DNA of 11,159 bases, taken from contig CAYTEI010000057.1 in NCBI GenBank assembly GCA_964436705.1, positions 1 to 11,159 of the forward strand, in the 5' to 3' direction. Below the pieces are notes generated by a model. It saw only the letters and a list, made by a program, of their open reading frames with translations. It searched no databases and was not told the origin of the DNA. Shown here piece by piece: positions 61 to 11,159 of this stretch. Each line of letters opens with the position of its first letter. The stretch's first letter is position 1. This DNA is from an uncultured Thermococci archaeon (GTDB lineage: Archaea > Methanobacteriota_B > Thermococci > Thermococcales > CAYNOZ01). The translations under genes were made by a program, and so were the position numbers.

Positions 61-2001
61 TTACTTGAAGTATGAGAAGTAATCCTCCATGTGCGGGCTT
101 GTATCTCCTTTAAGCCATATCTCTATCGTGATATCGCCATCGCTAAATCCTAGGTCTATTTCTTTCCCGATTTGGCTTGATCCTATTGTCTTTGAGTCTC
201 CTGCTCCATCCTTAACCACGAACCAGAAATCATTATTACTTGTTTGATTCTTCACGGTTGCCTCGATCTGGACCTTGGCCGGTGTAAAACCTAATTGCTT
301 TGATTCTACTCCGTTTCCTTGCGGCTTACTACCGATTGAGTATTGATAGATTGCATTGCTTCCAGTTCCAGCGATCTCCATGACGGTTCCTCCATCATCA
401 AACCATACATCTACTGGGTTTCCATCCTCGCTTATTGAGTTGCTCCAATCTGATCCACTAGTAATAGTGCTGGCATCCCATGCTGTGCTTAGAGAGAATG
501 CTTTGATTGACCCTCCGTCATCGATGATGTAGGCTTCAGTTCCGTCTGGCCTAATATTTCCTCCTTGAATACTGCTACTTGCGTTATTGCTTAGGTATTC
601 AGAGACTGTTCCTTGGCTCATTGTAGTTATATCCCAGGCAGTTCCTAAACTCCATACACCAATGGATCCTTGTCCATGATCAAAGGTCATCAGTTTGGTT
701 CCATCCGGCTTAAACGCTATTGTTTTCGGATTATCCTCAACATAAGGAGTCATTCCTGTCATATCAAAAGTATTAAGGCTGCTTGCTGTGGTTACATCCC
801 AGGCAGTTCCTAGGGTAAATGATTCGATCTTGTTACTGTATTGATCCAGGATATACATCCTTGTTCCGTCTCTCCTGAACTCAATTGCCTGCGGAGTATT
901 ATAACTAATAGAATGAGTTCTTGGACTGCTTGGATTTACGACTGAGGCAATATCATGGGCTGTATTAAGATCGTATTCCTGTACCTGCGAACTTGTTAGC
1001 ACATATAATTTGTATCCTGAATCTCCTATGAATGAATCTAATGGAGCGCTGGTTGAACTATGACTGGTTTCGTAGGATTTACTCTGAATATTCCAGTATC
1101 CACCACTAGCTGTATGTTCAAGATAGTAGTCCGTAGTGTTTACGGATACGCTATTCTGTGTATCTAGTTTTGTGGCATCCAGGAAGGCATCCATCAATCC
1201 ATCATTATAGTTTAGCCTATCTAGGCCTCTGTCGAATAAGATCCTGGTCTGACCTCTAACCAGGTCTCCTCTTAGCTTGGCAATTGATTTGCTGTTTTCC
1301 TCTATTCTTTGGGCGTTGTTGACTGCTGTTTTGATATCGGCTTGGTTGACTCCTGCGTTGCTTACTTTTGCGTCTAGGTTGTCTAGGATTCTTTGGGCTA
1401 GGCTGTCTGCGGCTGGAGAATCATCACTCAGATCCTCTAATAATTTATTCTTCACCCATTGCTCGATCTCGGTTTGTGTGTTTTTGTCTGTGGCTGTTTT
1501 CCCTGCGTTACTGATCTTTGCGTCCAGATTATTGTATAATAGTTCGGCAATACTGTTACTATTAAGAGTATCATCGCCTAGAGGGTTGTTTAGTTCGTTA
1601 AATACCCAGGTCTCGATCTCTGACTGCGTATTCTTATCTCCACTTCCTCCTGCTTCGCTCACCTTAGCATCTAGGTTGTTGTATATTCTCTCTGCTATAC
1701 TATCGGTTGTTAATGTGTCATCGCTTAGATCATCATTCAGCTTATTCATTACCCAGGTTTCTATTTCGCTTTGAGTATTCTTTCCTCCATCGCTTACTGG
1801 AGCATCTAGGTAATCTATTATTCGCTGCGCTATACTATCCTGTGTAAGGCTTGCTCCACTTAGGTCTTCTAGGAGTTTGTTCTTTACCCAGTTCTCAATC
1901 TCTGCTTTGCTGGGTTTAAGATCGGTATCGTCGTGTTGTTCGCCATCTGCCCATATTATGCTTAGAATTTCTTCTTTTGTTAAATTATCTATATCTCCCA
2001 T
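61..2001 (-). CDS. 646 aa putative tail fibre / receptor-binding adhesin with three parts. N-terminal: 4 tandem ~45-50 aa repeats (K-N-T-Q-S-E-I-E-T-W-V..N.L...L.....SIA.R....NLDAKVS.AG). Central: 4 beta-propeller-like blades (..PDGT..Y...D....I..FSL.TAWD..T). C-terminal: beta-rich domain.
   Basis: A long ORF with no in-frame stops. ATG at 1999-2001 is preceded on the minus strand by GGGAGGG (plus 2007-2013) with a 5-nt spacer. It is the last gene in a co-directional structural operon. Internal repeat architecture read directly from the translation, PDGT/AWD motifs resemble PD40 (TolB-like) propeller repeats. Confidence 0.6.
   Translation of the reverse strand: MGDIDNLTKEEILSIIWADGEQHDDTDLKPSKAEIENWVKNKLLEDLSGASLTQDSIAQRIIDYLDAPVSDGGKNTQSEIETWVMNKLNDDLSDDTLTTDSIAERIYNNLDAKVSEAGGSGDKNTQSEIETWVFNELNNPLGDDTLNSNSIAELLYNNLDAKISNAGKTATDKNTQTEIEQWVKNKLLEDLSDDSPAADSLAQRILDNLDAKVSNAGVNQADIKTAVNNAQRIEENSKSIAKLRGDLVRGQTRILFDRGLDRLNYNDGLMDAFLDATKLDTQNSVSVNTTDYYLEHTASGGYWNIQSKSYETSHSSTSAPLDSFIGDSGYKLYVLTSSQVQEYDLNTAHDIASVVNPSSPRTHSISYNTPQAIEFRRDGTRMYILDQYSNKIESFTLGTAWDVTTASSLNTFDMTGMTPYVEDNPKTIAFKPDGTKLMTFDHGQGSIGVWSLGTAWDITTMSQGTVSEYLSNNASSSIQGGNIRPDGTEAYIIDDGGSIKAFSLSTAWDASTITSGSDWSNSISEDGNPVDVWFDDGGTVMEIAGTGSNAIYQYSIGSKPQGNGVESKQLGFTPAKVQIEATVKNQTSNNDFWFVVKDGAGDSKTIGSSQIGKEIDLGFSDGDITIEIWLKGDTSPHMEDYFSYFK
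1336..1917 (-). repeat. In-frame tandem coding repeat. There are 4 units of ~135-150 nt encoding ~45-50 aa helical-looking repeats in the N-terminal stalk of the 646-aa protein. The units are diverged at DNA level (about 70-75% identity by eye).
   Basis: Four consecutive peptide units begin KPSKAEIENWV / KNTQSEIETWV / KNTQSEIETWV / KNTQTEIEQWV, each ending ..NLDAKVS.AG. The matching nucleotide periodicity is visible (for example acccaggtctcgatctctgactgcgtattctt at ~1606 versus acccaggtttctatttcgctttgagtattctt at ~1752). Confidence 0.75.
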
Positions 2002-2013
2002 TTTTTCCCTCCC

Positions 2014-2313
2014 TTAGTGCTTAACTCCTGAGGTTGCAGTAATTGATTTATGTGTTCCTGCGTTCTGCCTTATCTCGATCTTTATTGGTTCGGATTGAGC
2101 TACTAATATATCTGCTATTTGTTTGATTGGTTCTTCCTGCGCATCTTGGTATTCGACTTTTCTATAGGTCTCGTAGTTTCCATCTTCATCTTCATCTATT
2201 CCTATATCTATCTCTAATTCATCTCCACTCGCCATATTCTCAAGATTAATATGGCAAAAGAAGAGACCAGTATCTGGGGAAATATCCAGTAAGGTTTGCC
2301 ATGTTCCATCCAT
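2014..2313 (-). CDS. 99 aa hypothetical protein, very acidic (stretch DELEIDIGIDEDEDGNYETY); virion-associated or assembly protein of unknown function
   Basis: Intact ORF within the operon, ATG start. Its stop lies 12 nt upstream of the next gene, whose SD sits in that gap. I cannot recognise any family motif. Confidence 0.45.
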   Translation of the reverse strand: MDGTWQTLLDISPDTGLFFCHINLENMASGDELEIDIGIDEDEDGNYETYRKVEYQDAQEEPIKQIADILVAQSEPIKIEIRQNAGTHKSITATSGVKH

Positions 2314-2358
2314 ACTAAGGCTATGGTCTGTAATAATTAATCACCTTCTAAGAAGATT

Positions 2359-2721
2359 TTAATAGGTCCATCCACATAATAAGCGGGTTTTTGATCCGTC
2401 ATAATACTTTATTTTGCCTGAATTATCTAGCCATTGTTGGCCTTTTACTGGTGAGGTAGGGTCGGTGCTCCTTGGCTCTATAACTACTGATTCTACTTCC
2501 CAGTTGGTGCCATTATCGTAGTACCATAGTTTTTGGTCAATTGCGAGAAATTTCCTACCTTCATCACCAGGTTCAGGTCTCTCATTAAGGGGTCCCGCAA
2601 TCACCATTTCAGTATCTATAACTTCAAAATTAGTGTTTAGTGGTATATGCCAGTCTGTACTTCCGGCTTCAGGCTTATCCAAACTATGATTATCCGTTTT
2701 AACCATAAAAAAACATCTCAC
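2359..2721 (-). CDS. 115-120 aa hypothetical structural-module protein. The likely true start is the ATG at 2704-2706 (MVKTDNHS...), not the GTG at 2719-2721.
   Basis: Intact ORF, co-directional, with a 13-nt gap to the upstream gene. Aromatic/Gly-rich C-terminus (GQQWLDNSGKIKYYDGSKTRLLCGWTY). No family recognised. Confidence 0.45.
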   Translation of the reverse strand: MRCFFMVKTDNHSLDKPEAGSTDWHIPLNTNFEVIDTEMVIAGPLNERPEPGDEGRKFLAIDQKLWYYDNGTNWEVESVVIEPRSTDPTSPVKGQQWLDNSGKIKYYDGSKTRLLCGWTY

Positions 2722-2734
2722 AAAAATAATTTAA

Positions 2735-3880
2735 TTAGAATGACCAGGTAGATAAACTATTATCGAGTGCTTGGATTTTAGTTTCGAAAAGATCTTTTTC
2801 TAAGTTCTCTATTTCTAGGTTAGAGGTCTCGTTGCCTGGTTCTAAGGTTAAAGTTGTGATCTTTGGCTCTACCTTGGCTAATCTGATTCTATAGTTTTCT
2901 AGGTGAATATCTTGATCTTTATGTTTGGCTGTGACGTGATCTCCTGGTTCTAGAGATTTTTTCAGATATTCTTCTGTGCTTATCTCTACTTCGGCGGTGA
3001 TAATTGAGGTATTTAGTTTTGATAGTTCAATATTTGATTTTGCTTTTAGAGAATTCTTAGAAGAGATATTATTGTTTACAATTGCTTTTTCTCTTATAAT
3101 TTCGTTTTTTATTAGTTCGTCTTCTTGGGTTGTTGTTTCTATTCTTTTTTCGTTAATTGATCCTGTTGACACGACTCTAGATATGAGATCTATATTTTTG
3201 GTGTATTTTATGTTTTGTACGGTTTTTAGTTTTCCTTTGTTTTTTCCTAGCATCTTTTTGAGGGTTACTGTTCTTGTTTGGTTGTTTGTTTTCCAGTCCG
3301 CTGTTTTTAGGTTTTCATTATTGATTATGTAGTAATAATTGTTTGCTAGAGCTTTGATCCAGTCTAGCTTTGTCCAGTATCTTCCAAGTATGCTTAGGTT
3401 AATGGTTGAGTCACTGTATTCTCCTTCTCCATAACCGAAGTATCCATAAAGCCACTGCCTATCAAGATCAGATCTCCATTTTGTGTTTCCTAATATATCT
3501 TCTAGGATCGTTCCAATATCTGTGTCTTTGTACTCTGTGATGTATTCGCTGGGGCTTTCCTCCCACTCATAACTCGACCCATCGCTCGTTCGGTGGAGTC
3601 TCTTATCTAGGGATATGTATTCATGGCTCATCGCATCTATAAAGATAAAATCATTAATGATTCGATAATCAGTTATAAAACCTTCCTCTATGGTTCTGTA
3701 TGCTTCTAGGCTTATCGGGCTGTAAAGAGTAGATTCAACAACGGACTTGTTATATAGGGTGAATGGAATAATAATTGTGAACTCGTTGATTTTATTGAGT
3801 TTTTTCTTTGCGCTAAAATCGTCTATACCTATGTCTGTCTCTTTTTCTGTTTCTTTGTATGTTTTTAGGGTTATCTTCAC
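2735..3880 (-). CDS. 381 aa hypothetical virion protein, N/K/T-rich and AT-rich coding sequence. Possibly a tail/baseplate or fibre-associated protein.
   Basis: GTG start at 3878-3880 preceded by AGGTGA (plus 3887-3892) with a 6-nt spacer. The SD overlaps the stop codon of the upstream 830-aa gene (10-nt intergenic gap), so the two genes are probably translationally coupled. The plus-strand shadow ORF 2976..3332 reflects the extreme T-richness. Confidence 0.6.
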   Translation of the reverse strand: MKITLKTYKETEKETDIGIDDFSAKKKLNKINEFTIIIPFTLYNKSVVESTLYSPISLEAYRTIEEGFITDYRIINDFIFIDAMSHEYISLDKRLHRTSDGSSYEWEESPSEYITEYKDTDIGTILEDILGNTKWRSDLDRQWLYGYFGYGEGEYSDSTINLSILGRYWTKLDWIKALANNYYYIINNENLKTADWKTNNQTRTVTLKKMLGKNKGKLKTVQNIKYTKNIDLISRVVSTGSINEKRIETTTQEDELIKNEIIREKAIVNNNISSKNSLKAKSNIELSKLNTSIITAEVEISTEEYLKKSLEPGDHVTAKHKDQDIHLENYRIRLAKVEPKITTLTLEPGNETSNLEIENLEKDLFETKIQALDNSLSTWSF

Positions 3881-3886
3881 TTGGTA

Positions 3887-3892
3887 TCACCT
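3887..3892 (-). promoter_or_regulatory. Shine-Dalgarno AGGTGA for the 381-aa gene, overlapping the stop codon of the upstream 830-aa gene
   Basis: Minus-strand sequence GTAGGTGATACCAAGTG: AGGTGA, then a 6-nt spacer, then the GTG start. Confidence 0.5.
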
Positions 3893-6383
3893 ACTTCACA
3901 CTGAGCTCTCTGATCACTTGATAGTCTCTGAGGAGGTTTCTACTAATATCTTGAACTCCATCTCCGTGGATTGGGATTAGAAGAAAATCTGAAATATAAA
4001 TAGTATTACTATTGGTACTGTTCTTTTCTAACTCGAATATCACGGGATCTGTTTCTCTTGGTACTCGTAGTGGTCTTATGTATTCTTTGTAGTTTTCTGT
4101 TAAGGTTATTGATCTTGTTAGTCCGGATCCGTTGAGGCTGAGTGAATTATTGTTACTATCTTTGATTCTGAATAGTAGATCATTCTCTACTTGGTTTTCA
4201 TCTTTGGCAAGGATTACTGTTAAGTATTCTCCGTGGGTTAGATTGCTATATTTTAGTTTTTCTATGGTCTCTGAGGTTGTTAGATTGGTTTTTATGGTTT
4301 GGTGGTGTTGGTGGTTGGTTGGAAGGGCTCCTATCCCGATCTTAGTACCTTTAGGTATGGAATGGGTTTTCATTTTGCTGGTGGCGTTGATCTTTTGGTT
4401 TGTTGTGATGAGATCTAGGTGGTCTTTGGTTTTTGGTATTCCTGTTAGGTAATTATCTCCTAGAGTTACATCGAATGTATTATTGTGATCCTTCGAGCTG
4501 ACTCTATGACCTACATTACTTTCAAGACATAGTGCGAAATCATTAGCTCCATAACTAATACTCCATAGATCTCCTGAGAACTCTTCCTTAAGTACCAGTC
4601 TTCCTTGATACTCTCCTCTCCTTAGCTTTAGAGACCATCTGCTAAGATCTTCCGAGCCAAGAACTAGTTCTACTATGGCTTTTTCAGGTGAATAATCCCT
4701 AACAACAACATCCCTAACCTCCACACTACTACCTGATTGAGGTTCAAAGTTGATGGTTTCAGAACTACTCCATCCCCCCTTGGTATACACCTGTACTTCA
4801 ACTGGATCCCTCAACAAAAACCGAACCAAAGAATTTCCAATACCAGGGTCCCCACTGAACCTATGATTAGGATCGTAGACCTGAACCCAATCACTAGGAT
4901 CATCACTATTCATATCATCATATATTTTAACCTTTCCAGTATTTTTCTCAACGAAATCACTTAGTTTGAAGCCTAGGAATGCGTTATAAACGGGATCTAA
5001 CCAGATAGAATCGATCTTAATTTCGTTACTCACTGATAGGTTCTTTTCTACTGATACCTCAATTTCATCTCCACTGTTTTCCTCACTTACTTCGAATTCC
5101 TGGGTTTCTATGATGGTGTATTCTGTATTGTTAGTTGTCTTTTGTTCTTGCAGAAGATTTAATCCATTATTTATGTCTTCAACTTTGACTAGGATATCTT
5201 CTTCTATGTTGTTGTCTTTTAGTCCTATTTTTGCTTTGTAGGTTCCTTTTGGTATTCCATTTTTTGATCCTATCTTGAATTTTGTGTTTGCTTTTTCTCC
5301 TTGGGATCTTAGGATATTGGCTGTCATCCCCAAGAAATCTTCTAGGTATATTTCAACTCCACCCACAAGATCTCCACATGAACCATAGGGAAAACGGAAT
5401 ACCTCCATTTCACCTGCGGCTGATCCATAACTTCCACTGGAACTCATTACAACCAAATCACCCGTCTCCGGATTAATAAAACGAACATCACCACAACCAA
5501 CCGGAAGACAAACCTCAGTACACCCAAAAAAACCAAAACCACCATCATCAAAAAGAACAGACCTCAAAAAATAAGATAATCCATAATTACCAGATTTCAA
5601 ATAAGTAACATCATCTAATACAACTTTTACCAAATTACAACGATCATCATCCCCCACCCTAATACTCTCTATACCTAGGTACCCCTCTAGTCCATCGATC
5701 CTGAACGAATTATAACCCGGGCCTCTTTCATCTAGAGTAAGCAGATCTTCTCTCTGCTGCTCAACACTCTTCCCATCACTATGCCCCATCTCAGATAAAT
5801 AACCAATGATCTTCCCAGAATCCAATCTCTGGCTGGAACTACTGATCCTAGCCGAAGCACTTACCCCACCAACAATCTCCTGTTCTGTTTCGCTAGTTAG
5901 ATCTTTTCCTCCGTAGATGGGTATCTCTATGTCACCAATGAATAGTTCTTTCTTATCAATTAGAGCTATTTCTGTCACTATTTGTGCTCTAAATATTTCC
6001 TCACGATCCTCGTATGGACCTACTTTGTTTATGTGAGAGTTTAGGATGATTCCACTTTCTAGTTCTGAAATGTTTTGTAAGGTTTCTAGTGCTTTGTCTC
6101 CATAATTTCTTAACGCCTCTCTATACTTCTCCGAGGCCTCCATATAGTTATTGAAATGTATTAAGATGTTTATGCTTAGTTCTAATATGTTCTTTATTGG
6201 TTTTGCTTCTTTTTTGGTTTGGTTTCTTTTTATGATGATTTGTGGGTAGTAATGTTTGCTGTATTCGTCTATGGTTTTATCTCTACTTCCATAGAGCTCC
6301 GAATAAACTCTACTGATTGATAGATTATTTTGTAGTAGATTCTTCACTTCTATTATGGTTTTGGTGGAGAATTGGTTATTCAT
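3891..6383 (-). CDS. 830 aa large structural protein. Candidate tail tube/nozzle, appendage or baseplate-like component of a short-tailed virion. Contains a Gly-rich middle segment with a 4-Cys cluster (GCTEVCLPVGCGD ... SCGD) and an N/T/K-rich C-terminal third.
   Basis: 2.5 kb uninterrupted ORF. ATG at 6381-6383 is preceded by GAGAGG ~10 nt upstream on the minus strand. It sits immediately after the head-completion genes, where podovirus-type tail genes normally lie. No recognisable tape-measure features such as long helical repeats. Confidence 0.7.
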   Translation of the reverse strand: MNNQFSTKTIIEVKNLLQNNLSISRVYSELYGSRDKTIDEYSKHYYPQIIIKRNQTKKEAKPIKNILELSINILIHFNNYMEASEKYREALRNYGDKALETLQNISELESGIILNSHINKVGPYEDREEIFRAQIVTEIALIDKKELFIGDIEIPIYGGKDLTSETEQEIVGGVSASARISSSSQRLDSGKIIGYLSEMGHSDGKSVEQQREDLLTLDERGPGYNSFRIDGLEGYLGIESIRVGDDDRCNLVKVVLDDVTYLKSGNYGLSYFLRSVLFDDGGFGFFGCTEVCLPVGCGDVRFINPETGDLVVMSSSGSYGSAAGEMEVFRFPYGSCGDLVGGVEIYLEDFLGMTANILRSQGEKANTKFKIGSKNGIPKGTYKAKIGLKDNNIEEDILVKVEDINNGLNLLQEQKTTNNTEYTIIETQEFEVSEENSGDEIEVSVEKNLSVSNEIKIDSIWLDPVYNAFLGFKLSDFVEKNTGKVKIYDDMNSDDPSDWVQVYDPNHRFSGDPGIGNSLVRFLLRDPVEVQVYTKGGWSSSETINFEPQSGSSVEVRDVVVRDYSPEKAIVELVLGSEDLSRWSLKLRRGEYQGRLVLKEEFSGDLWSISYGANDFALCLESNVGHRVSSKDHNNTFDVTLGDNYLTGIPKTKDHLDLITTNQKINATSKMKTHSIPKGTKIGIGALPTNHQHHQTIKTNLTTSETIEKLKYSNLTHGEYLTVILAKDENQVENDLLFRIKDSNNNSLSLNGSGLTRSITLTENYKEYIRPLRVPRETDPVIFELEKNSTNSNTIYISDFLLIPIHGDGVQDISRNLLRDYQVIRELSVK

Positions 6384-6387
6384 AGAT

Positions 6388-6744
6388 TTAAGCCTCTCTA
6401 CAACCGATTATGAAAAATATTTTTTCTTCTCTATAATTAATTGGCTTAACTCTTTTCACCACGTATTCTATTTCCCCGTCCAAGTCCCGATCAATTCTAT
6501 CTCCCGGGTTTAGTTCGGTATTGGTTCCGAAGGTGAGGTCATGGGTTTTTGCTATTCCTAGGTCTCCGTGGCTTAGCTCTTCTTCATCTGACATGGTTAT
6601 GATCTTAATTGTTTTGGTTTGGATTGTCCCAGTGTAGTCCTGATCAAATTCATCGGTGGTGCTGGTCTTTGTTACGTTTATCTCCACGGTTTCTCCGTAC
6701 CTCTGTAAGAATCTCTGAATTGAAGACTTATACAGTACTACCAA
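6388..6744 (-). CDS. ~100-118 aa hypothetical protein. Possible head-tail joining or head-closure protein, judged from position only.
   Basis: ORF directly downstream of the connector-like gene. The annotated TTG start at 6744 overlaps the upstream gene by 17 nt and has GGGG immediately adjacent (spacing 0). An alternative in-frame GTG at ~6687, with GGAG 5 nt upstream, would give ~99 aa. Confidence 0.45.
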   Translation of the reverse strand: MVVLYKSSIQRFLQRYGETVEINVTKTSTTDEFDQDYTGTIQTKTIKIITMSDEEELSHGDLGIAKTHDLTFGTNTELNPGDRIDRDLDGEIEYVVKRVKPINYREEKIFFIIGCREA

Positions 6745-7096
6745 CCCCTACACTTGGTCTACTCAGGTTTTCTAGTCTTCCTTTTAGTATTTCGTTTGCT
6801 CTTCTCCCGTACCATGTGGAGTTTATTCCTTTTCCTGATTCTTCCTGATATTTCACTGTGAAGCTTTGGACATTTGCTTCTCTTCCGGGTCTAGGCTCTC
6901 TTACGGCGATCAAGTGGCAGGCGTAATACTTTTCTCCAACCCGGAGCTCTTCAACGCCTAGATCTTCATAATTCTGCTCTAATCGATCTATCACTATTGC
7001 TGCATCCTCTATGAATTCTTGGATCTCTGTGTCACTTAGTTGGGTTTCGCCAAGAACTGTTTTCACATTATCTACATCTGTTCTTATAGGAATCAA
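6728..7096 (-). CDS. 122 aa putative head-tail connector / DNA-packaging adaptor (gp6-like)
   Basis: Size and position are right for the first gene after the major capsid gene. The N-terminal pattern VDNVKTVLGETQLSDTEIQEFIEDAAIVIDRLEQ resembles the conserved N-terminal helix of gp6-like head-tail connector proteins (..vK.hLri..d.dD.li..li.aA...ie..). The TTG start has GGGAG immediately upstream, so the exact start is uncertain. Confidence 0.5.
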   Translation of the reverse strand: MIPIRTDVDNVKTVLGETQLSDTEIQEFIEDAAIVIDRLEQNYEDLGVEELRVGEKYYACHLIAVREPRPGREANVQSFTVKYQEESGKGINSTWYGRRANEILKGRLENLSRPSVGVGSTV

Positions 7097-7113
7097 CTCC
7101 CAGAATAATCAAT

Positions 7114-7131
7114 AAAAGAGGGAAAAGAGGG
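7114..7131. repeat. Perfect tandem 9-mer AAAAGAGGG x2 on the plus strand (CCCTCTTTT x2 on the transcribed strand), in the 59-nt gap between the capsid and connector genes
   Basis: Read directly at 7114-7122 and 7123-7131. On the mRNA it is a pyrimidine/U-rich tract, CCCUCUUUUCCCUCUUUUAUUG. Confidence 0.6.
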
Positions 7132-7155
7132 CTTTATTAGAGCTTTAAATAGGAC

Positions 7156-8109
7156 CTATATTCCTGAGAACTCTAGAACAGCTGACTCATTATAAACCTC
7201 AAAAGAGGAGATTTCAAGCATTTTCTTTCTGGTTTCTATTTCGTTGTCCTTGTAGGTTAGTGTTGTTACTCCTTGTCCTATTGGTTTCCTCATAAATCTA
7301 TCATTAGTATTCGCCAACATGAAAGCCTCTCCCTCATCTAGTAGGTAGCTAGGCTTTATGCTGTTAAGTTCGTCAAGAGTATCTACGATTACTTGTCTGA
7401 ATAGTTCTGTATCATTGTTTACCCATTGTCTTAGTTGGCTCCACTGAGTACTCGAAACATAAAGGTTGTATCTTAGTCCTGTGGTTAGTGCATCGTCTAG
7501 TTTGTCTAGTCCACTCTGAATATCTTCTTGTATGTTGTCGAGGGTGCTCCAGTCGCTTCCTGATACGGTTAGGTTCTTTGATAGGTTTCTTAGTCCTGGG
7601 ACTTCGTATTTTTGGTCTCCGTTCACTATTAGGTCTTCTATTGATCTTCCTATGGCTTCTGCTGCTATCTGTATCTCCCTCTCATCAACATCGAACTGGT
7701 TCCTTGCGGAATCCCATCTCCAATTCGTTTGAAGTTCTAGATGGTGTACTGGTACCATTACGCTTCCCGGGACCAGATCAGATCTATCCAGGTTCTCACT
7801 CATACCATCCATATCCCTAACAGCTTCCCTCTCATTCTTATCCCAATACCACTTAGACGTAGTGATCGCAGGACCACTAAGTCTTTTAATGGACATATCA
7901 TCAGCAAAAACAGTGACATCACTGATAGCGCTTTTTATTTCTTTATCTATTTGTTCGAATGCGTCTTTGGGTATTCTGTCATTCGTTATTGGTTCACCGA
8001 TCTTTGTTTGGATTGCTTCATTTGTCATGAAAACAGAGTTGCTTAGATACTTGGATTTTTTAAGAGCTCTTCTCAGAGTGCCAGGATCCTTATCTCGATT
8101 AGCCTGCAT
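7156..8109 (-). CDS. 317 aa putative major capsid protein (HK97-fold type, no delta domain)
   Basis: Flanked upstream by the protease/scaffold and decoration-like genes and downstream by a connector-like gene. This matches the canonical lambda-like order C/Nu3-D-E-FII. The size is typical of scaffold-dependent MCPs. ATG at 8107-8109 with GGAG ~10 nt upstream. Assigned by synteny, not by recognisable sequence motifs. Confidence 0.6.
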   Translation of the reverse strand: MQANRDKDPGTLRRALKKSKYLSNSVFMTNEAIQTKIGEPITNDRIPKDAFEQIDKEIKSAISDVTVFADDMSIKRLSGPAITTSKWYWDKNEREAVRDMDGMSENLDRSDLVPGSVMVPVHHLELQTNWRWDSARNQFDVDEREIQIAAEAIGRSIEDLIVNGDQKYEVPGLRNLSKNLTVSGSDWSTLDNIQEDIQSGLDKLDDALTTGLRYNLYVSSTQWSQLRQWVNNDTELFRQVIVDTLDELNSIKPSYLLDEGEAFMLANTNDRFMRKPIGQGVTTLTYKDNEIETRKKMLEISSFEVYNESAVLEFSGI

Positions 8110-8126
8110 ACATAAACATCTCCAAA

Positions 8127-8597
8127 TTATTTGGTTAATACGTGGATTCTTTTAGCCTCAGAAGAAGCATCCACGCCTTCAAGTGCAACACCAACGACTG
8201 CCTCAGACTTCTCAACACTAGTCTCCCCACCAGTATCATTTTCCGTATGACTATGACCACTCCTAGGAGCTAAGTAACCATTACCAGCGCTCACCAACTC
8301 AGCCCCTTCAGAAACACTTTCACCAGAATCAAGCCAAAGAACAGCCGTACAACCAGAGACATCCATAACATTCACCGGCTCACCACCCTCATAACTCTCC
8401 GAGATATTACCAGTCAAAGGATCACTAACCACAGCAACACCAAGAGCCTCCTCACCAGCACCTCCATGTTTCTGCACCTTAGAATCTGTGTTTAGCCCTA
8501 CTAGCATGCCTGGGGTTATGGATTCGGCAGCCTCCGGATAACCTAAATCAACAGGATTTCCACCTGAAACAATCTTATTATCAGGTTTCTCTAACAC
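8127..8597 (-). CDS. ~157 aa Gly/Val/Ser-rich putative capsid decoration/cement protein (DUF2190-like). The track ORF extends to 8672, but its first ~25 residues are a hydrophobic artefact-like extension.
   Basis: Pattern G.LVGLNTD..V...GGAG.EALGVAVVS...G....YEGGEPV.VMDVSGCTAVLWLDSGESVSEGAELVSAGNGYL...EAVVGVALEGV...KRIHVL matches the G/V-periodic DUF2190 family found between scaffold and MCP genes. The GTG at 8595-8597 is preceded by GGAGG (8606-8610) with an 8-nt spacer. Confidence 0.55.
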   Translation of the reverse strand: MLEKPDNKIVSGGNPVDLGYPEAAESITPGMLVGLNTDSKVQKHGGAGEEALGVAVVSDPLTGNISESYEGGEPVNVMDVSGCTAVLWLDSGESVSEGAELVSAGNGYLAPRSGHSHTENDTGGETSVEKSEAVVGVALEGVDASSEAKRIHVLTK

Positions 8598-8664
8598 ACA
8601 AAAAACCTCCAAATATATACACAGAAAAGAACGAACCAAAAAAACAGACACAGAAATTAGATAA

Positions 8665-9114
8665 TTATTCATTTAATGCATAAGCTCCATCATGATGACG
8701 ATTCACTTCAGGATCATTTTCCTCGTTATTTGTTGGTGGCTTCTTCTCTTTCTTCCCCTCAAAGTTGTTACTGGTTCTAAGATCTTCTCTTATTGCCTCC
8801 AAATGATTAAGATCCATCTCCTCATAGAACTCCTTATCCCTATCAGTCTCATCAACCAACTCATTGACAATGGTCTCTTTTTTCTGTTTACTTTCTTTGA
8901 TCCTTTTTTCTTGTACTTCTTTTGCTTTTTTTAGTTCGTTGACTTCTCCAAGTTCTTCGTATTCTTCTAATTGTTGGTTGAGTTCCTGGTTTTCCTCCTT
9001 GATTTCCTGCTTCTTGTTTTGTAGTTCTTTTTTAGTTTCTTGGAGCTCGTTACGTTCTTGTTTTAGTTCATTTATTTGTTTCTCTAATTCTTCGATCTTT
9101 TCTTCTTCACACAT
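8665..9114 (-). CDS. Nested in-frame scaffold protein (149 aa, MCEEEKIEELEKQ...) initiated from an internal start within the protease-scaffold gene
   Basis: An in-frame ATG at 9112-9114 sits exactly at the protease/coiled-coil boundary. It is preceded on the minus strand by AAAAAAGGAGGTGAAAAAAGC-ATG (GGAGGTGA = plus 9122-9129, 7-nt spacer). The frame was checked: (9789-9114) = 675 = 3 x 225. Confidence 0.4.
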   Translation of the reverse strand: MCEEEKIEELEKQINELKQERNELQETKKELQNKKQEIKEENQELNQQLEEYEELGEVNELKKAKEVQEKRIKESKQKKETIVNELVDETDRDKEFYEEMDLNHLEAIREDLRTSNNFEGKKEKKPPTNNEENDPEVNRHHDGAYALNE

Positions 9115-9789
9115 GCTTTTTTCACCTCCTTTTTTGTCTAAATTTATGTCAGGGATCTGGGCTAGGATCATCGAATCAGTAGAATCACTGGAGTTGTTGG
9201 GGATGGGGCCCTTACAAGTGGAACAAGCACCCTCCTCCCCATCCAACAAAATAGCCAAATGATCAACATCATTCAACCGCCTCTCCACAAACTCATACTC
9301 CACACCATCGAACTCACCAGGATCCCTCACCTTATCCGCAAAAAACCCAATAGAAACAGGAAAACTAGAACCCATTAGAAACTCAGTAGCAACTCCTTCA
9401 ACGTCTTCTTTATTAAGATCTAGAACCATCTCAGCAACAATCCTATTCCTTTCCTCATCGAACTCCTGATTCCTCGTAAATCCTTTTTCGAATTCTGGCC
9501 GATTCATACCCCTGATCTTAACGTAATGACCATCTTTCCTCGGATGATTGAATACTACTGGAACATTTTCAAACAGGTTTCTTCTAGCTGCATCTCTGAT
9601 AGCGTTACCAGTCTTCAAATGATCATTATGAACTCCTTCTCGAGTTACTTCAACAGGAACCACTAAGAAACCATCCTCACGATAAACCTCCCTAGAAACA
9701 TCCCGATTCACAAAAACAGAACCCAAATCCACAATACCACAAACCAAATACCCTAAAGAACAGGCACAAAAACAAAGAAAATACATCAA
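8665..9789 (-). CDS. 374 aa prohead protease-scaffold fusion. The N-terminal ~225 aa are a prohead serine-protease-like domain (candidate catalytic His in VVFNHPRKDGH and Ser in GSSFPVSIGFF). The C-terminal ~150 aa are a K/E-rich coiled-coil scaffolding domain.
   Basis: Peptidase_S78 (HK97 gp4/XkdF-like) proteases share an H ... G.S.G.(F/G) arrangement with ~50-65 aa spacing, which is seen here. The C-terminal EEEKIEELEKQINELKQERNELQETKKELQNKKQEIKEENQELNQQLEEYEEL has the heptad-like charged periodicity typical of scaffold proteins. It is the first gene of the operon after an AT-rich intergenic region. The extreme N-terminus (MMYFLCFCACSLGYLVCG) looks artefactual, and the true start may be internal (for example the GTG at ~9709-9711). 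Confidence 0.6.
   Translation of the reverse strand: MMYFLCFCACSLGYLVCGIVDLGSVFVNRDVSREVYREDGFLVVPVEVTREGVHNDHLKTGNAIRDAARRNLFENVPVVFNHPRKDGHYVKIRGMNRPEFEKGFTRNQEFDEERNRIVAEMVLDLNKEDVEGVATEFLMGSSFPVSIGFFADKVRDPGEFDGVEYEFVERRLNDVDHLAILLDGEEGACSTCKGPIPNNSSDSTDSMILAQIPDINLDKKGGEKSMCEEEKIEELEKQINELKQERNELQETKKELQNKKQEIKEENQELNQQLEEYEELGEVNELKKAKEVQEKRIKESKQKKETIVNELVDETDRDKEFYEEMDLNHLEAIREDLRTSNNFEGKKEKKPPTNNEENDPEVNRHHDGAYALNE
9122..9129 (-). promoter_or_regulatory. Internal Shine-Dalgarno GGAGGTGA 7 nt upstream of the in-frame ATG that starts the scaffold domain
   Basis: Read directly. It is the strongest SD match in the window and it lies inside a coding region. Confidence 0.5.
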
Positions 9790-10053
9790 ATATATATCAA
9801 GGAAAAAGAGGGTATCCTACCTGTTCACCCAAAGAAACGGGTTAATAAAACATATATCCTCCTAATATAAAAGCATTATAGTATAACTTCCGAAAAAACC
9901 GATAATAGGTTAAAATCATTATAACAAAATAGAAAAATACAGCATTCAAACAATAAAAATCAATTACGACGAAATATACGTTTTTTAATAAAATAAATAC
10001 AAAAAACATGATAAATAATTGGATACTCATCCTTCAATTTATTCATCCACTCC
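9790..10053 (-). promoter_or_regulatory. AT-rich (~25% GC) intergenic region between the RM-like gene and the structural operon. Probably the operon promoter/leader, and probably the RM gene's terminator.
   Basis: 264 nt with no credible ORF (only a 62-aa hydrophobic shadow). Minus-strand oligo-T runs follow the RM gene stop (TCATGTTTTTTGTATTTATTTTATT). TATA-like stretches lie near the protease start (TTGATATATATTTG). No clean hairpin terminator found. Confidence 0.35.
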
Positions 10054-11159
10054 TCAATCCTCTAATTTATTGAATTTCTGAATAATTTCTCTTTTAATCT
10101 CTTCATTAGTATCTAAAGAATCCAGAACCGTTTCTACCTCATCCTCAGTAAGATCATAAAGATCAAATACAATAGCATCAATCTCATTATCAGTTTCTTG
10201 AATCTCTCTTTCCAGCTTTTCAGCCTTCTCTTTGTTTTCTATGAACTTTTCTAGTCCTGATTCCACGTCTTCAAGTTTCGGTAAAGTCAACTTCTCCAAC
10301 CTATCTATTAGGGAGTTAGTCTTAGTAGCTGTTTCTCTGAAGTTTGCGAATCCACCGGCCTCATCCAAAGCCAGAGAAACAAACTCCTCGATCAAAGGCC
10401 TCAACTTCTCATCAACATCAAACCTCATCGCAGGTACTTTCTCAGTCTTAAAGTAACCCCATTGATCCAACTCATCCTCATCGATACTTTCAGATTCATC
10501 AGGCTTGTAACGAGCAGAAACCTTCAAGACTAAATCATCGTTTCTTTCCTCAAACTCAACACCGCCAATCCTCAAACTATCCCGATCAGCAGAAGTATCA
10601 CTAACAACTTTGTCGGAGAGGCCTTCAACAGGCATATAGAGTTCTCCTAAAGTTTTTCCGTCAGGATCCTCAACTGAAGTTCCTAGATAGTCTAAAATTT
10701 CAAGGTTTATGCCATCCAAATTATCTCTCTTTTCTCTGGCTTCGGATACCAGTTTATTCAACCTCGTGATTTTTTCTTCAGAGTCCACAACAGGTACAGG
10801 ATTGAGATAAGAAGTTTTGAATCGGAAGAAACCTCCCCTCAATCTTGAACTGGTATTAGAAATGAAAAACCAGGTAATTTTGCTATTGAGCTGAGCTAGA
10901 TAATATCTCATTTTTTCTTTAACTTCTAACTCCACTCCGTAACCTGTATCTGCAAAGTAAATACCTCCCTCTCTGTCCAGAGTAAATTCACAGCCATTAC
11001 TTATATCCGGAGTTAGTATCTTCTTTGAATCAAATACTTCTTTTTCTCTCGGACACCACAGTGCGTACCATTTCTCATAATTCATAGAGGATGTCCCACG
11101 GGAAGATAATCGCTTCTTATTGACCTCAAGATAAGAATAAGTCTTTGGATACTCATTTT
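10054..11159 (-). CDS. C-terminal portion (>=368 aa, 5' end outside the window) of a Type IIG restriction-modification enzyme / N6-adenine DNA methyltransferase (BREX PglX-like is possible), with a TaqI_C-like target-recognition domain
   Basis: The reading frame stays open from the annotated ATG (11083-11085) to the window edge (..NEYPKTYSYLEVNKKRLSSRGTSSMNYEKWYALWCPREKEVFDSKKILTPDIS..). This matches the conserved E.YP.iy.YL....kL..R.......WyeL.rpRe...f...KIv.pdi. block. Further hallmarks are LAQLNSKITWFF (LNSK motif), RLRGGFFRFKTSYLNPVPV (RGG..EF....L..LPIP motif) and the C-terminal IDAIVFDLYDLTEDEVETV (vy.LYgLTeEEI..vE). Confidence 0.7.
   Translation of the reverse strand, partial: NEYPKTYSYLEVNKKRLSSRGTSSMNYEKWYALWCPREKEVFDSKKILTPDISNGCEFTLDREGGIYFADTGYGVELEVKEKMRYYLAQLNSKITWFFISNTSSRLRGGFFRFKTSYLNPVPVVDSEEKITRLNKLVSEAREKRDNLDGINLEILDYLGTSVEDPDGKTLGELYMPVEGLSDKVVSDTSADRDSLRIGGVEFEERNDDLVLKVSARYKPDESESIDEDELDQWGYFKTEKVPAMRFDVDEKLRPLIEEFVSLALDEAGGFANFRETATKTNSLIDRLEKLTLPKLEDVESGLEKFIENKEKAEKLEREIQETDNEIDAIVFDLYDLTEDEVETVLDSLDTNEEIKREIIQKFNKLED

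What the first reader, a model, noticed from the sequence alone, without database searches (positions are those of the whole stretch)
7156..9789. Lambda-like head-gene order, with no portal or terminase upstream
The order protease/scaffold - small Gly-rich decoration-like protein - ~317 aa capsid - gp6-like connector mirrors lambda C/Nu3-D-E-FII. In such modules the portal and terminase genes normally sit immediately upstream of the protease. Here the upstream neighbour is an AT-rich spacer and then a host-type RM/methyltransferase gene. The head module has therefore either been rearranged or captured (GTA-like, satellite or PICI-like elements lack their own packaging genes), or the virus carries an RM-like gene inside its morphogenetic region. 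Either case is unusual.
Basis: partly seen in the sequence, partly recalled or inferred. Interest (0 to 1): 0.6.

Follow-up and report, generated by a model that had tools for sequence, protein, structure and literature searches.

The report
Archaeal virus head genes, contig cut short
This is an ordinary-looking capsid-gene cassette from a very rare tailed virus linked to salt-loving nano-archaea; portal and terminase cannot be called absent, because the 11-kb contig ends inside the upstream restriction-modification gene.

Summary
The head-gene order is real. On the minus strand lie a DUF2213 protease/scaffold, a beta-tulip-type decoration (cement) protein, an HK97-fold major capsid protein, a DUF4054/E217-gp27-like head-to-tail adaptor and an Hc1-like protein. 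Orphan tail- or fibre-like genes follow.

The upstream neighbour is the 3' part of a type IIG restriction-modification/methyltransferase gene. Its last 200 residues are 75-78% identical to chromosomal genes of Nanohaloarchaeota.

The window is an entire 11,159-bp NCBI contig, and the RM reading frame runs off its end. Only about 1.4 kb upstream of the protease can be seen. "No portal or terminase upstream" is therefore a limit of the contig, not a demonstrated absence.

In four more distant relatives with the same cassette, a portal lies upstream. Between it and the protease sit 1 to 7 intervening genes (Mu F alone in one case), so adjacency is not the rule.

The capsid gene is under strong purifying selection (dN/dS 0.017 against a 95%-identical contig from another sample). 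The lineage is extremely rare: three sequences among about 15 billion proteins.

Most likely this is a fragment of a nanohaloarchaeal tailed virus or provirus carrying, or lying next to, a host-type RM gene. A packaging-less captured cassette is not excluded, but nothing supports it.

The parts
10054..11159 (-). 3' part (at least 367 codons) of a type IIG restriction-modification/methyltransferase gene. It contains a TaqI_C specificity domain followed by a conserved C-terminal domain, and the reading frame is open at the window end.
   Evidence: There is no stop codon between 11157 and 11085. Pfam TaqI_C gives 5.4e-10. PADLOC MTase_II gives 3.8e-16 and REase_MTase_IIG 5.3e-14. The protein is 56% identical to the Nanohaloarchaea SG9 chromosomal protein. 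The C-terminal 200 aa are 75-78% identical to nanohaloarchaeal proteins, and 10101-10693 is about 79% identical in DNA (79.0-79.5%).
9712..10053 (.). AT-rich intergenic spacer (28% GC) and the only long non-coding gap in the window. It is probably the terminator region of the RM gene plus the promoter region of the structural operon (inferred).
   Evidence: Composition; sequence shows several T5-T6 runs and TATA-like stretches. No tRNA, no att-like repeat and no Rfam family. The 62-aa ORF at 9842-10030 is hydrophobic, AT-driven and probably spurious.
8665..9789 (-). Prohead protease/scaffold-type protein. The N-terminal part is a DUF2213 domain and the C-terminal half is an acidic coiled coil. 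The true start is probably 9786 (as in the NCBI protein) or GTG 9711.
   Evidence: Pfam PF09979 scores 25.3 bits against a cut-off of 22; PHROGs 530, 2229 and 3778 are 'head maturation protease'. The NCBI protein P0163 is 373 aa. Homologs in L001, L012, L013, L011 and L010 sit at the same position in their modules.
8127..8597 (-). Decoration/cement protein of about 156 aa, of the beta-tulip type seen in Sf11 gp40, TW1, E217 gp24 and XM1 gp53.
   Evidence: Pfam XM1_gp53_minor_capsid gives 3e-5 and Phage_cement 2e-4, both below their gathering scores. Profile A4 hits 9ocb_H at 2e-9 and 5wk1_X at 7e-7. The L001 homolog (61% identical) is called as 157 aa.
7156..8109 (-). Major capsid protein, 317 aa, of the HK97 fold in its encapsulin-like branch (DUF6260 / Linocin_M18 / Major_capside).
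   Evidence: Pfam hits above gathering score. NCBIfam encap_f1 gives 6e-12. PHROGs 771 and 264 match. Profile A1 against the PDB hits encapsulins at 3e-31, the Sf11 capsid protein at 1.4e-13 and the TW1 capsid protein at 2.3e-10. dN/dS is 0.017 against L002.
6728..7096 (-). Head-to-tail adaptor, 122 aa, DUF4054 / E217 gp27-like.
   Evidence: Pfam DUF4054 gives 1.8e-4 at 22.1 bits, against a cut-off of 23.9. PHROG 302 matches. It is 34% identical to the DUF4054 gene of L013 at 1.6e-7. E217 gp27 is the head-to-tail adaptor (PMC10329688). dN/dS is 0.02.
6388..6744 (-). Probable head-closure (Hc1-like) neck protein. The ORF is 118 aa; the L002 homolog is called as 99 aa.
   Evidence: PHROG 161 'head closure Hc1' gives only 7.6e-3, which is weak. 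The assignment rests on position after the adaptor and 98% identity in L002.
3891..6383 (-). Orphan 830-aa protein, presumed to be a tail or neck-proximal structural protein. It is not detectably a portal.
   Evidence: No Pfam, PHROG, NCBIfam, PDB or phage-database hit. hhalign against the Phage_portal_3 profile gives probability 0.07% (reported 0.07). The AlphaFold2 single-sequence model is unusable at pLDDT 32. The only homolog is the partial gene in L002 (93% identical).
2735..3880 (-). Orphan 381-aa protein, presumed to be a tail hub or baseplate-like protein (inferred from position only).
   Evidence: No family or PDB hit. hhalign against the portal profile gives probability 0.24% (reported 0.24). 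The AlphaFold2 model has pLDDT 29.
2014..2721 (-). Two small genes of 120 aa and 99 aa, function unknown.
   Evidence: ORFs. Only sub-threshold hits.
61..2001 (-). A 646-aa repeat protein, fibre- or receptor-binding-like. It has four N-terminal repeats of about 50 aa and C-terminal repeats of about 55 aa carrying a 'TAWD' motif.
   Evidence: Translation. DNA repeat family D2 has a period of about 150 nt. No significant family hit.

Best explanation
The window is a fragment of the structural (late) gene block of a rare head-tailed archaeal virus (Caudoviricetes), or of its integrated form, associated with Nanohaloarchaeota.

Transcription probably starts in the AT-rich spacer and runs through these genes:
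- a DUF2213 protease/scaffold, which would drive procapsid assembly and then be removed;
- a trimeric beta-tulip decoration protein, which would cement three-fold sites;
- an HK97-fold capsid protein;
- a gp27/gp6-type adaptor and a head-closure protein, which would dock on the portal;
- orphan tail and fibre genes.

The gene just upstream is a type IIG RM/methyltransferase of nanohaloarchaeal type. It is either an accessory gene the virus acquired from its host or the flanking host gene.

Portal, Mu F and terminase genes are not missing in any demonstrable sense. The contig ends inside the RM gene, and they most likely lie beyond it or elsewhere in the genome.

Shown: the gene identities, their order, the truncation, the host affinity of the RM gene, and purifying selection on the head genes. 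Inferred: the operon start in the spacer, the viral nature of the whole contig, and the location of the portal and terminase.
For: - Module identity.
- The window equals a whole contig and the RM frame is open at its end.
- Four relatives (L010, L011, L013, L014) have a portal upstream of the protease-small protein-capsid block (TerL also called in three of them, not in L014), with 1-7 genes between portal and protease.
- The closest protease relative, L012, also has a non-portal phage gene (phrog_5335) directly upstream.
- Strong purifying selection: capsid protein dN/dS 0.017 and adaptor 0.02 against L002, with dS about 0.2.
- Variants occur in two other samples, at 95% nucleotide identity (L002) and about 70% (L001).
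- All proteins are acidic (pI 4.2-5.4) and GC is about 40%, as for Nanohaloarchaeota and their viruses; bioRxiv 10.1101/2025.02.15.638363.
- The RM C-terminal domain is 75-78% identical to nanohaloarchaeal chromosomal genes, against 42-50% for named haloarchaeal proteins (Halorubrum, Haloplanus, Natrinema, Haloarcula).
- Nanohaloarchaeal viruses are reported to acquire host genes and carry methyltransferases.
- Haloarchaeal Hafunaviridae carry annotated type IIG RM genes.
Against: - No portal, terminase, Mu F, integrase or replication gene is visible, so the viral status of the whole contig rests on the structural genes alone.
- The closest RM homologs sit in cellular chromosomes with no viral neighbours. 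The RM gene could therefore simply be host DNA flanking an integrated or truncated element.
- No close RM homolog was found from the samples that hold L001 and L002, so the RM gene may not be a conserved part of the element.
- No relative was found in IMG/VR, JGI metagenomes or GTDB genomes, so the expected upstream genes could not be shown directly.
Confidence: 0.6

Rival explanations
1. The contig is nanohaloarchaeal chromosome. The RM gene is a host defence gene, and the head-tail block is the edge of an integrated provirus, or a 5'-truncated provirus remnant, whose boundary lies in the AT-rich spacer. In the remnant version the packaging genes really are absent.
For: The RM gene's nearest relatives are chromosomal, sit in variable defence-island-like contexts, and share about 79% DNA identity over roughly 590 nt. 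GC and GC3 do not differ between the RM fragment and the head genes. The source is an NCBI genome-type record. The cited preprint reports a provirus integrated in one nanohaloarchaeal genome and a tailed virus binned into a nanohaloarchaeal MAG.
Against: - There is no integrase, tRNA or att-like repeat in the window.
- A provirus boundary between the portal/Mu F genes and the protease would be atypical.
- Strong purifying selection on the capsid and adaptor genes, together with diverged copies in other samples, does not look like a decaying remnant.
- No related provirus occurs in 185,579 GTDB species genomes.
Confidence: 0.22
2. This is a captured or domesticated head-tail cassette (GTA-like), or a satellite that makes its own capsid and borrows the portal and terminase from a helper. 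That is the first reader's preferred reading.
For: No packaging gene appears in 11 kb. A host-type gene lies directly upstream. The structural genes are under purifying selection, as would be expected for a maintained element.
Against: - The absence is unproven because the contig is truncated.
- By general knowledge, known GTAs and capsid-forming PICIs encode their own portal, since the capsid protein, scaffold and portal co-assemble. The cited preprint notes the coupled evolution of capsid and portal proteins.
- The presence of adaptor, neck and fibre-like genes resembles a complete virion module rather than a satellite.
- Every relative with a long contig has a portal upstream.
Confidence: 0.08
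3. The portal is present but downstream, as in phi29-type gene orders, hidden in one of the orphan proteins (830 aa or 381 aa).
For: Both proteins are orphans with no family assignment. Their structures could not be predicted, so a portal fold is not formally excluded.
Against: - hhalign against the Phage_portal_3 profile from relatives gives probabilities of 0.07% and 0.24% (reported 0.07 and 0.24).
- No portal family of Pfam or PHROGs matches, even at E = 0.1 to 1.
- The low-confidence models suggest mostly beta structure for the 830-aa protein.
- The genes lie after the adaptor and head-closure genes, where tail proteins are expected, and in all relatives the portal is upstream.
Confidence: 0.05
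4. The contig is an assembly chimera, joining a host RM gene to a viral contig at the low-complexity AT-rich spacer.
For: The junction is a 340-bp stretch of 28% GC. Independent contigs (L001, L002) cover only 5208-9366 and never cross the junction. The contig breaks inside a gene whose 3' part is conserved across nanohaloarchaeal genomes.
Against: There is no direct evidence for a misjoin. Strand, codon composition and acidity are uniform across the junction.
Confidence: 0.05

Closest known systems
Head modules of E217 / Pam3 / XM1 / TW1 / Sf11-type tailed phages: DUF2213 protein, beta-tulip cement or decoration protein, encapsulin-like HK97 capsid protein, DUF4054 (E217 gp27) adaptor
   Same: The same four families occur in the same order. 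Pfam gives DUF2213, XM1_gp53/Phage_cement, DUF6260/Linocin_M18 and DUF4054. Both the capsid and decoration proteins pair with the same solved virions, 9ocb (Sf11) and 5wk1 (TW1). E217 gp24 is the cement protein, gp25 the capsid protein and gp27 the adaptor.
   Different: Sequence identity is only 20-30%. The host is archaeal and halophilic, and the proteins are acidic. No tube, sheath or tape-measure gene is recognisable downstream. The portal and terminase are not visible. An RM gene sits where Mu F or small genes sit in relatives.
Lambda head genes C/Nu3-D-E-FII
   Same: The functional order is the same: protease/scaffold, trimeric decoration protein, HK97-fold capsid protein, connector. Relatives of the decoration protein are described as structurally similar to gpD (PMC12724387).
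   Different: No sequence-family membership was found. There are no Peptidase_S49, lambda gpE or gpD family hits. The similarity is analogy of layout plus a shared fold class, not lambda lineage.
Nanohaloarchaeal tailed viruses (DNTVs, LTV2) described from metagenomes (bioRxiv 10.1101/2025.02.15.638363)
   Same: These share the inferred host phylum, low GC, acidic proteomes, carriage of methyltransferases and host-derived genes.
   Different: No sequence match was found to any record in the phage collection, nor to the IMG/VR viral contigs with the capsid- and protease-based scans. The capsid protein has only two close relatives among about 15 billion proteins, and the next nearest are 31% identical or less. 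It probably represents a separate, undescribed lineage.
Type IIG RM/methyltransferase genes of Nanohaloarchaeota (for example the SG9 chromosome) and of Hafunaviridae haloviruses (HF1, HRTV-21 gp39)
   Same: Both have a TaqI_C specificity domain and type IIG or type II methyltransferase profiles. The window fragment is 56% identical overall to the SG9 protein, rising to about 78% in the C-terminal domain. The halovirus genes match at 33-34% in the specificity domain.
   Different: Only the C-terminal 367 aa are present in the window. In haloviruses the gene lies among non-structural genes, and in cells it lies in defence islands, not next to head genes.
Family 1 encapsulin shell proteins
   Same: These give the best PDB and NCBIfam sequence similarity to the capsid protein.
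   Different: The gene is embedded between protease/scaffold, cement, adaptor and neck genes, and no cargo gene is present. This is a viral capsid context, not a nanocompartment operon.

Membership tests
Caudoviricetes head module of the DUF2213 / beta-tulip / DUF6260 / DUF4054 type | HK97-fold major capsid protein | tested here: met
   Sequence level only. Linocin_M18 and DUF6260 score above their gathering scores. The profile hits encapsulin and phage capsid structures at 3e-31 to 2e-10.
Caudoviricetes head module of the DUF2213 / beta-tulip / DUF6260 / DUF4054 type | Protease/scaffold gene directly upstream of the decoration and capsid genes | tested here: met
   DUF2213 scores above its gathering score and PHROG 530 matches. 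The C-terminal half shows coiled-coil-type matches (SMC/Rad50-like). Catalytic residues were not examined.
Caudoviricetes head module of the DUF2213 / beta-tulip / DUF6260 / DUF4054 type | Decoration/cement protein of the beta-tulip class | tested here: met
   The profile hits Sf11 gp40 at 2e-9 and TW1 at 7e-7. For the single sequence, the Pfam hits are below threshold.
Caudoviricetes head module of the DUF2213 / beta-tulip / DUF6260 / DUF4054 type | Head-to-tail adaptor (DUF4054 / E217 gp27) | tested here: inconclusive
   The score is 22.1 bits against a gathering score of 23.9. Support comes from 34% identity to the syntenic DUF4054 gene in L013 at 1.6e-7.
Caudoviricetes head module of the DUF2213 / beta-tulip / DUF6260 / DUF4054 type | Portal protein (Phage_portal_3 in relatives) and large terminase in the same genome | tested here: inconclusive
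   Neither is present in the 11,159 bases in any frame. However, the contig ends inside the upstream gene, and no longer relative could be retrieved.
Lambda-like head genes (lineage membership) | Homology to lambda C (S49 peptidase), D and E families | tested here: not met
   No such Pfam or PHROG family appears among the hits. The resemblance is one of order and fold class only.
GTA / capsid-forming satellite (PICI-like) | Element demonstrably lacks its own packaging genes (terminase; for a portal-less reading, also portal) | not testable with these tools
   This needs the complete element. The contig is truncated and no extension was found.
GTA / capsid-forming satellite (PICI-like) | Chromosomal residence with integrase or att sites (satellite), or fixed host locus (GTA) | tested here: not met
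   No integrase, tRNA or flanking direct repeats occur in the window. The flanks beyond the window are unknown.
Type IIG RM / gamma-class N6-methyltransferase with TaqI_C specificity domain | TaqI-like C-terminal specificity domain | tested here: met
   PF12950 scores 40 bits against a cut-off of 26.5. PADLOC type IIG and MTase_II profiles match.
Type IIG RM / gamma-class N6-methyltransferase with TaqI_C specificity domain | Methyltransferase catalytic domain (Eco57I/N6_Mtase) and nuclease domain | not testable with these tools
   These would lie upstream of base 11159. In SG9 and in the JGI contig they are in the same and the preceding ORF.
Family 1 encapsulin system | Shell gene paired with a cargo gene and no virion genes | tested here: not met
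   The shell-like gene is flanked by protease/scaffold, cement, adaptor and neck genes.

The most novel reading that the evidence does not exclude
The block is a self-contained head-tail cassette without packaging genes, lying in a nanohaloarchaeal chromosome directly downstream of a defence gene. It would be kept under purifying selection as a domesticated (GTA-like) or helper-dependent element. That would be the first such element in DPANN archaea.
Probability: 0.1. Interest if true: 0.75.

Novelty: new member of a known kind. Interest (0 to 1): 0.3.

Why it matters
Viruses of Nanohaloarchaeota (DPANN) have so far been described mainly from metagenomes. This contig adds a very rare capsid lineage: three sequences among about 15 billion proteins, with the next nearest relatives at 31% identity or less. 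It also shows a host-type type IIG RM/methyltransferase gene lying against the head genes. That pairing is a useful lead for host assignment and for studying gene exchange between viruses and their hosts. The specific claim of the finding, a head module without portal and terminase, would matter if true because it would point to a captured or helper-dependent element in DPANN archaea. The present data cannot show it, and the ordinary explanation, a truncated contig plus an intervening accessory gene, is more likely.

Tried and rejected
**Extending the contig or finding a longer relative**
- The exact-protein look-up of the window's capsid protein (as the window translation and as P0001) found nothing on record.
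- Close relatives L001 (2.4 kb) and L002 (3.3 kb) do not reach the junction.
- megablast and tblastn against 50,697 phage records found nothing for the whole window, the capsid protein or the 830-aa protein.
- Scans of IMG/VR, JGI metagenomes and GTDB genomes found nothing.

**Context of RM homologs**
- The contexts of P0006, P0007, P0008 and P0010 contain no viral genes.

**Testing the 830-aa and 381-aa proteins for a portal fold**
- The AlphaFold2 single-sequence models had pLDDT 32 and 29, so no fold search was run.
- phmmer against the PDB gave nothing.
- hhalign against a portal profile was negative.

**att sites, tRNA and RNA families**
- None found.
- The sigma-70 promoter and intrinsic-terminator scan of the spacer did not exceed the shuffled control and is not appropriate for archaea.

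**Readings rejected**
- Encapsulin operon: rejected on gene context.
- Lambda lineage: rejected because there is no family match.
- Composition-based discrimination of host from virus for the RM fragment: GC and GC3 are indistinguishable and 1.1 kb is too short.

Full report
**What is in the window**

All sizeable ORFs lie on the minus strand. Read 5' to 3' on that strand, the layout is as follows.

1. 11159..10054 is the 3' part of a large gene.
   - There is no stop codon between 11157 and the ATG at 11085 that the ORF list reports as the start. The gene therefore runs off the window.
   - It carries a TaqI-like C-terminal specificity domain (PF12950, 40 bits against a cut-off of 26.5).
   - It matches PADLOC type II methyltransferase and type IIG RM profiles and PHROG 16674 'DNA methyltransferase'.
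2. About 9712-10053 is a 28% GC spacer and the only long intergenic gap.
3. 9789..8665 is a DUF2213 protein with a coiled-coil, acidic C-terminal half.
   - PF09979 scores above its gathering score, and PHROGs 530, 2229 and 3778 are 'head maturation protease'.
4. 8597..8127 is a small protein of about 156 aa.
   - On its own it falls just short of the Pfam thresholds for XM1_gp53_minor_capsid and Phage_cement.
   - As a six-sequence profile with syntenic homologs, it hits the Shigella phage Sf11 decoration protein gp40 (9ocb_H, 2e-9) and the TW1 capsid-stabilizing protein (5wk1_X, 7e-7).
5. 8109..7156 is the 317-aa capsid protein.
   - Linocin_M18 and DUF6260 score above their gathering scores.
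   - NCBIfam encap_f1 gives 6e-12.
   - As a profile it hits encapsulins at 3e-31, the Sf11 capsid protein gp39 at 1.4e-13 and the TW1 capsid protein at 2.3e-10.
6. 7096..6728 is DUF4054 (the family Pfam now names after the E217 gp27 head-to-tail adaptor).
   - It scores slightly below threshold at 22.1 bits against 23.9.
   - It is supported by 34% identity to the syntenic DUF4054 gene of L013.
7. 6744..6388 is a weak Hc1-like hit.
8. Orphan proteins of 830, 381, 120 and 99 aa follow, then a 646-aa repeat protein that looks like a fibre.

So is the analogy with lambda's protease/scaffold, decoration protein, capsid protein and connector. Sf11 gp40, the closest solved relative of the small protein, is described as a beta-tulip trimer structurally similar to lambda gpD that binds all three-fold sites (PMC12724387). 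E217 gp24 (cement), gp25 (capsid) and gp27 (adaptor) form the same arrangement (PMC10329688). By sequence family, the module belongs to the DUF2213 / beta-tulip / encapsulin-like capsid / DUF4054 type. It does not belong to lambda's own families.

**The key limitation**

The 100%-identical capsid protein in the large protein collection comes from one NCBI contig of exactly 11,159 bp. The window is therefore the whole contig.

The contig ends inside the RM gene, so only about 1.4 kb upstream of the protease can be inspected. Within the window there is no portal, large terminase or Mu F signal:
- none in the called ORFs;
- none in any reading frame, when searched with the TerL, portal and Mu F proteins of relatives;
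- none in profile-profile comparison of a Phage_portal_3 alignment with the 830-aa and 381-aa orphans (probabilities 0.07% and 0.24%).

What lies beyond base 11159 cannot be seen. In two nanohaloarchaeal chromosomes the homologous RM locus is two ORFs, 792+526 aa and 812+579 aa. An intact locus here would extend about 3 kb further before any other gene.

**What relatives show**

The lineage is extremely rare.
- The word-indexed search of 5.8 billion cluster representatives found only the query cluster and one 77%-identical protein; a further member of the query cluster, P0003, came from the cluster look-up.
- An exhaustive HMMER search of 1.84 billion representatives found only 38 proteins at E < 1e-3, the nearest at 31% identity.
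- The two close relatives sit on short Logan contigs that do not reach the junction. L002 is 95% identical in DNA over window 5208-8521. L001 is about 70% identical.

More distant relatives on longer contigs give the baseline arrangement.

| Relative | Arrangement upstream of the capsid gene |
|---|---|
| L013 (Logan, 16.5 kb) | TerL, Phage_portal_3, Mu F, two small genes, protease-like protein, 158-aa protein, DUF6260 capsid protein, one gene, DUF4054, then a siphovirus tail |
| L014 | Portal, Mu F, DUF2213, 144-aa protein, capsid protein |
| Brevundimonas phage MaInes (L011) | TerL, portal, an opposite-strand endonuclease VII gene, DUF2213, 145-aa protein, capsid protein |
| Methanosarcinales virus vir525 (L010) | TerL, a 509-aa protein, seven genes over 3.4 kb (including a Mu F-like one), protease-like protein, 147-aa protein, 326-aa protein |
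| L012 (closest protease relative outside the immediate group) | A phrog_5335 protein of unknown function directly upstream of the protease |

A portal is always upstream in this module type, but it is not immediately adjacent. The space between portal and protease regularly holds extra genes. A large RM gene there would be an unusually big insert, but not a different kind of architecture.

**Host and nature of the upstream gene**

The RM fragment is a mosaic.
- Its specificity-domain part is only 30-48% identical to anything. The best matches are haloarchaeal.
- Its last 200 residues are 75-78% identical to proteins on the Nanohaloarchaea SG9 chromosome (P0007) and on large unnamed metagenome contigs with cellular gene contexts (P0006, P0008). 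The figure for named haloarchaeal proteins is 42-50%.
- DNA identity over about 590 nt is about 79%.
- Those homologs sit among cellular genes in variable, defence-island-like surroundings, with no viral neighbours.

All proteins in the window are acidic (pI 4.2-5.4) and GC is about 40%. The RM fragment and the head genes do not differ in GC or GC3. This fits Nanohaloarchaeota and their viruses, which are reported to mirror host GC and amino-acid usage, to carry DNA methyltransferases and to acquire host genes (bioRxiv 10.1101/2025.02.15.638363). Haloarchaeal Hafunaviridae (HF1, HF2, HRTV-21 and others) carry annotated type IIG RM genes with the same domain, though among non-structural genes.

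**Is the cassette alive?**

Measured against L002:

| Gene | dN/dS | dS |
|---|---|---|
| Capsid protein | 0.017 | 0.24 |
| Adaptor | 0.02 | 0.18 |
| N-terminal half of the 830-aa protein | 0.19 | 0.17 |

Against L001 the capsid protein keeps 77% amino-acid identity at 71% nucleotide identity. These genes were under strong purifying selection while the lineages diverged. That argues against a decaying remnant. It fits a replicating virus, or less probably a maintained domesticated element.

**Weighing the explanations**

- **Most likely (about 0.6).** This is a fragment of a tailed nanohaloarchaeal virus or provirus. Its late operon starts in the AT-rich spacer, and a host-derived type IIG RM/methyltransferase gene lies upstream. 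The portal and terminase lie further on.
- **Next (about 0.2).** This is host chromosome with an integrated or 5'-truncated provirus abutting a defence gene. No integrase, tRNA or att-like repeats are present in the window.
A captured, GTA-like or satellite element is not excluded. It has no positive support. The neck, tail and fibre-like genes and the general coupling of capsid protein and portal both count against it.
- **Portal hidden downstream (about 0.05).**
- **Assembly chimera at the low-complexity spacer (about 0.05).**

**What failed**

- Both structure predictions (the 830-aa and 381-aa proteins, single sequence) were unusable, with pLDDT 32 and 29. No fold search was run.
- The capsid protein itself was not modelled. 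Its HK97 assignment rests on sequence and profile evidence, which is strong.
- All attempts to find a longer relative in IMG/VR, JGI metagenomes, GTDB genomes and the phage collection failed.

**Verdict**

'No portal or terminase' is an edge-of-contig effect. The module is a new, very rare member of a known kind of head module. Interest is modest (0.3). It comes mainly from the rarity of the lineage, the probable DPANN host and the RM gene lying against the head genes.

Noticed in passing
window 10054-11159 (- strand): The RM fragment is a domain mosaic. The specificity-domain part (first 165 aa) best matches haloarchaeal proteins (48% to Halorubrum sp. AS12). The last 200 aa are 75-78% identical to nanohaloarchaeal chromosomal genes and about 79% identical in DNA. 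This suggests specificity-domain swapping on a conserved nanohaloarchaeal backbone.
   Followed up: partly
L009 7480-11581; L017 7492-11740: In Nanohaloarchaea SG9 and in a 282-kb JGI contig, the homologous type IIG locus is split into two consecutive ORFs (792+526 aa and 812+579 aa). The N-terminal ORF scores best on DISARM DrmMI and type IIG profiles. The split is conserved, so it may be a genuine two-gene arrangement rather than a frameshift.
   Followed up: no
window 61-2001 (- strand): The 646-aa protein has four N-terminal tandem repeats of about 50 aa (DNA period about 150 nt at 1454-1786) and several C-terminal repeats of about 55 aa containing 'TAWD', suggestive of a beta-propeller. 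It looks like a fibre or receptor-binding protein, but it has no family hit.
   Followed up: partly
window 2735-6383 (- strand): No tail tube, sheath, tape-measure or terminator gene is recognisable after the neck genes. Instead there are orphan proteins of 830 aa and 381 aa whose only known homolog is the partial copy in L002. The 830-aa N-terminal half evolves about ten times faster than the capsid protein (dN/dS 0.19 against 0.017). The tail type (short or otherwise) is unknown.
   Followed up: partly
window 7156-8109 (- strand): The capsid protein lineage is extremely rare. Only three sequences of 77% identity or more were found among about 15 billion proteins, and only 38 hits at E < 1e-3 among 1.84 billion cluster representatives, the nearest at 31% identity.
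   Followed up: yes
L012 1-396: In the closest outside relative of the protease (41% identical; Logan ERR11420198), the gene directly upstream of the protease is a beta-rich protein of PHROG 5335 (unknown function), not a portal or Mu F protein.
   Followed up: partly
window 9842-10030 (- strand) and 8598-8672, 9712-9789: The mechanical ORFs over-extend. The 62-aa hydrophobic ORF in the AT-rich spacer is probably spurious. The N-terminal extensions of the cement ORF (181 aa, against 157 aa called for the L001 homolog) and of the protease ORF (374 aa) are hydrophobic read-throughs and are probably not translated.
   Followed up: partly
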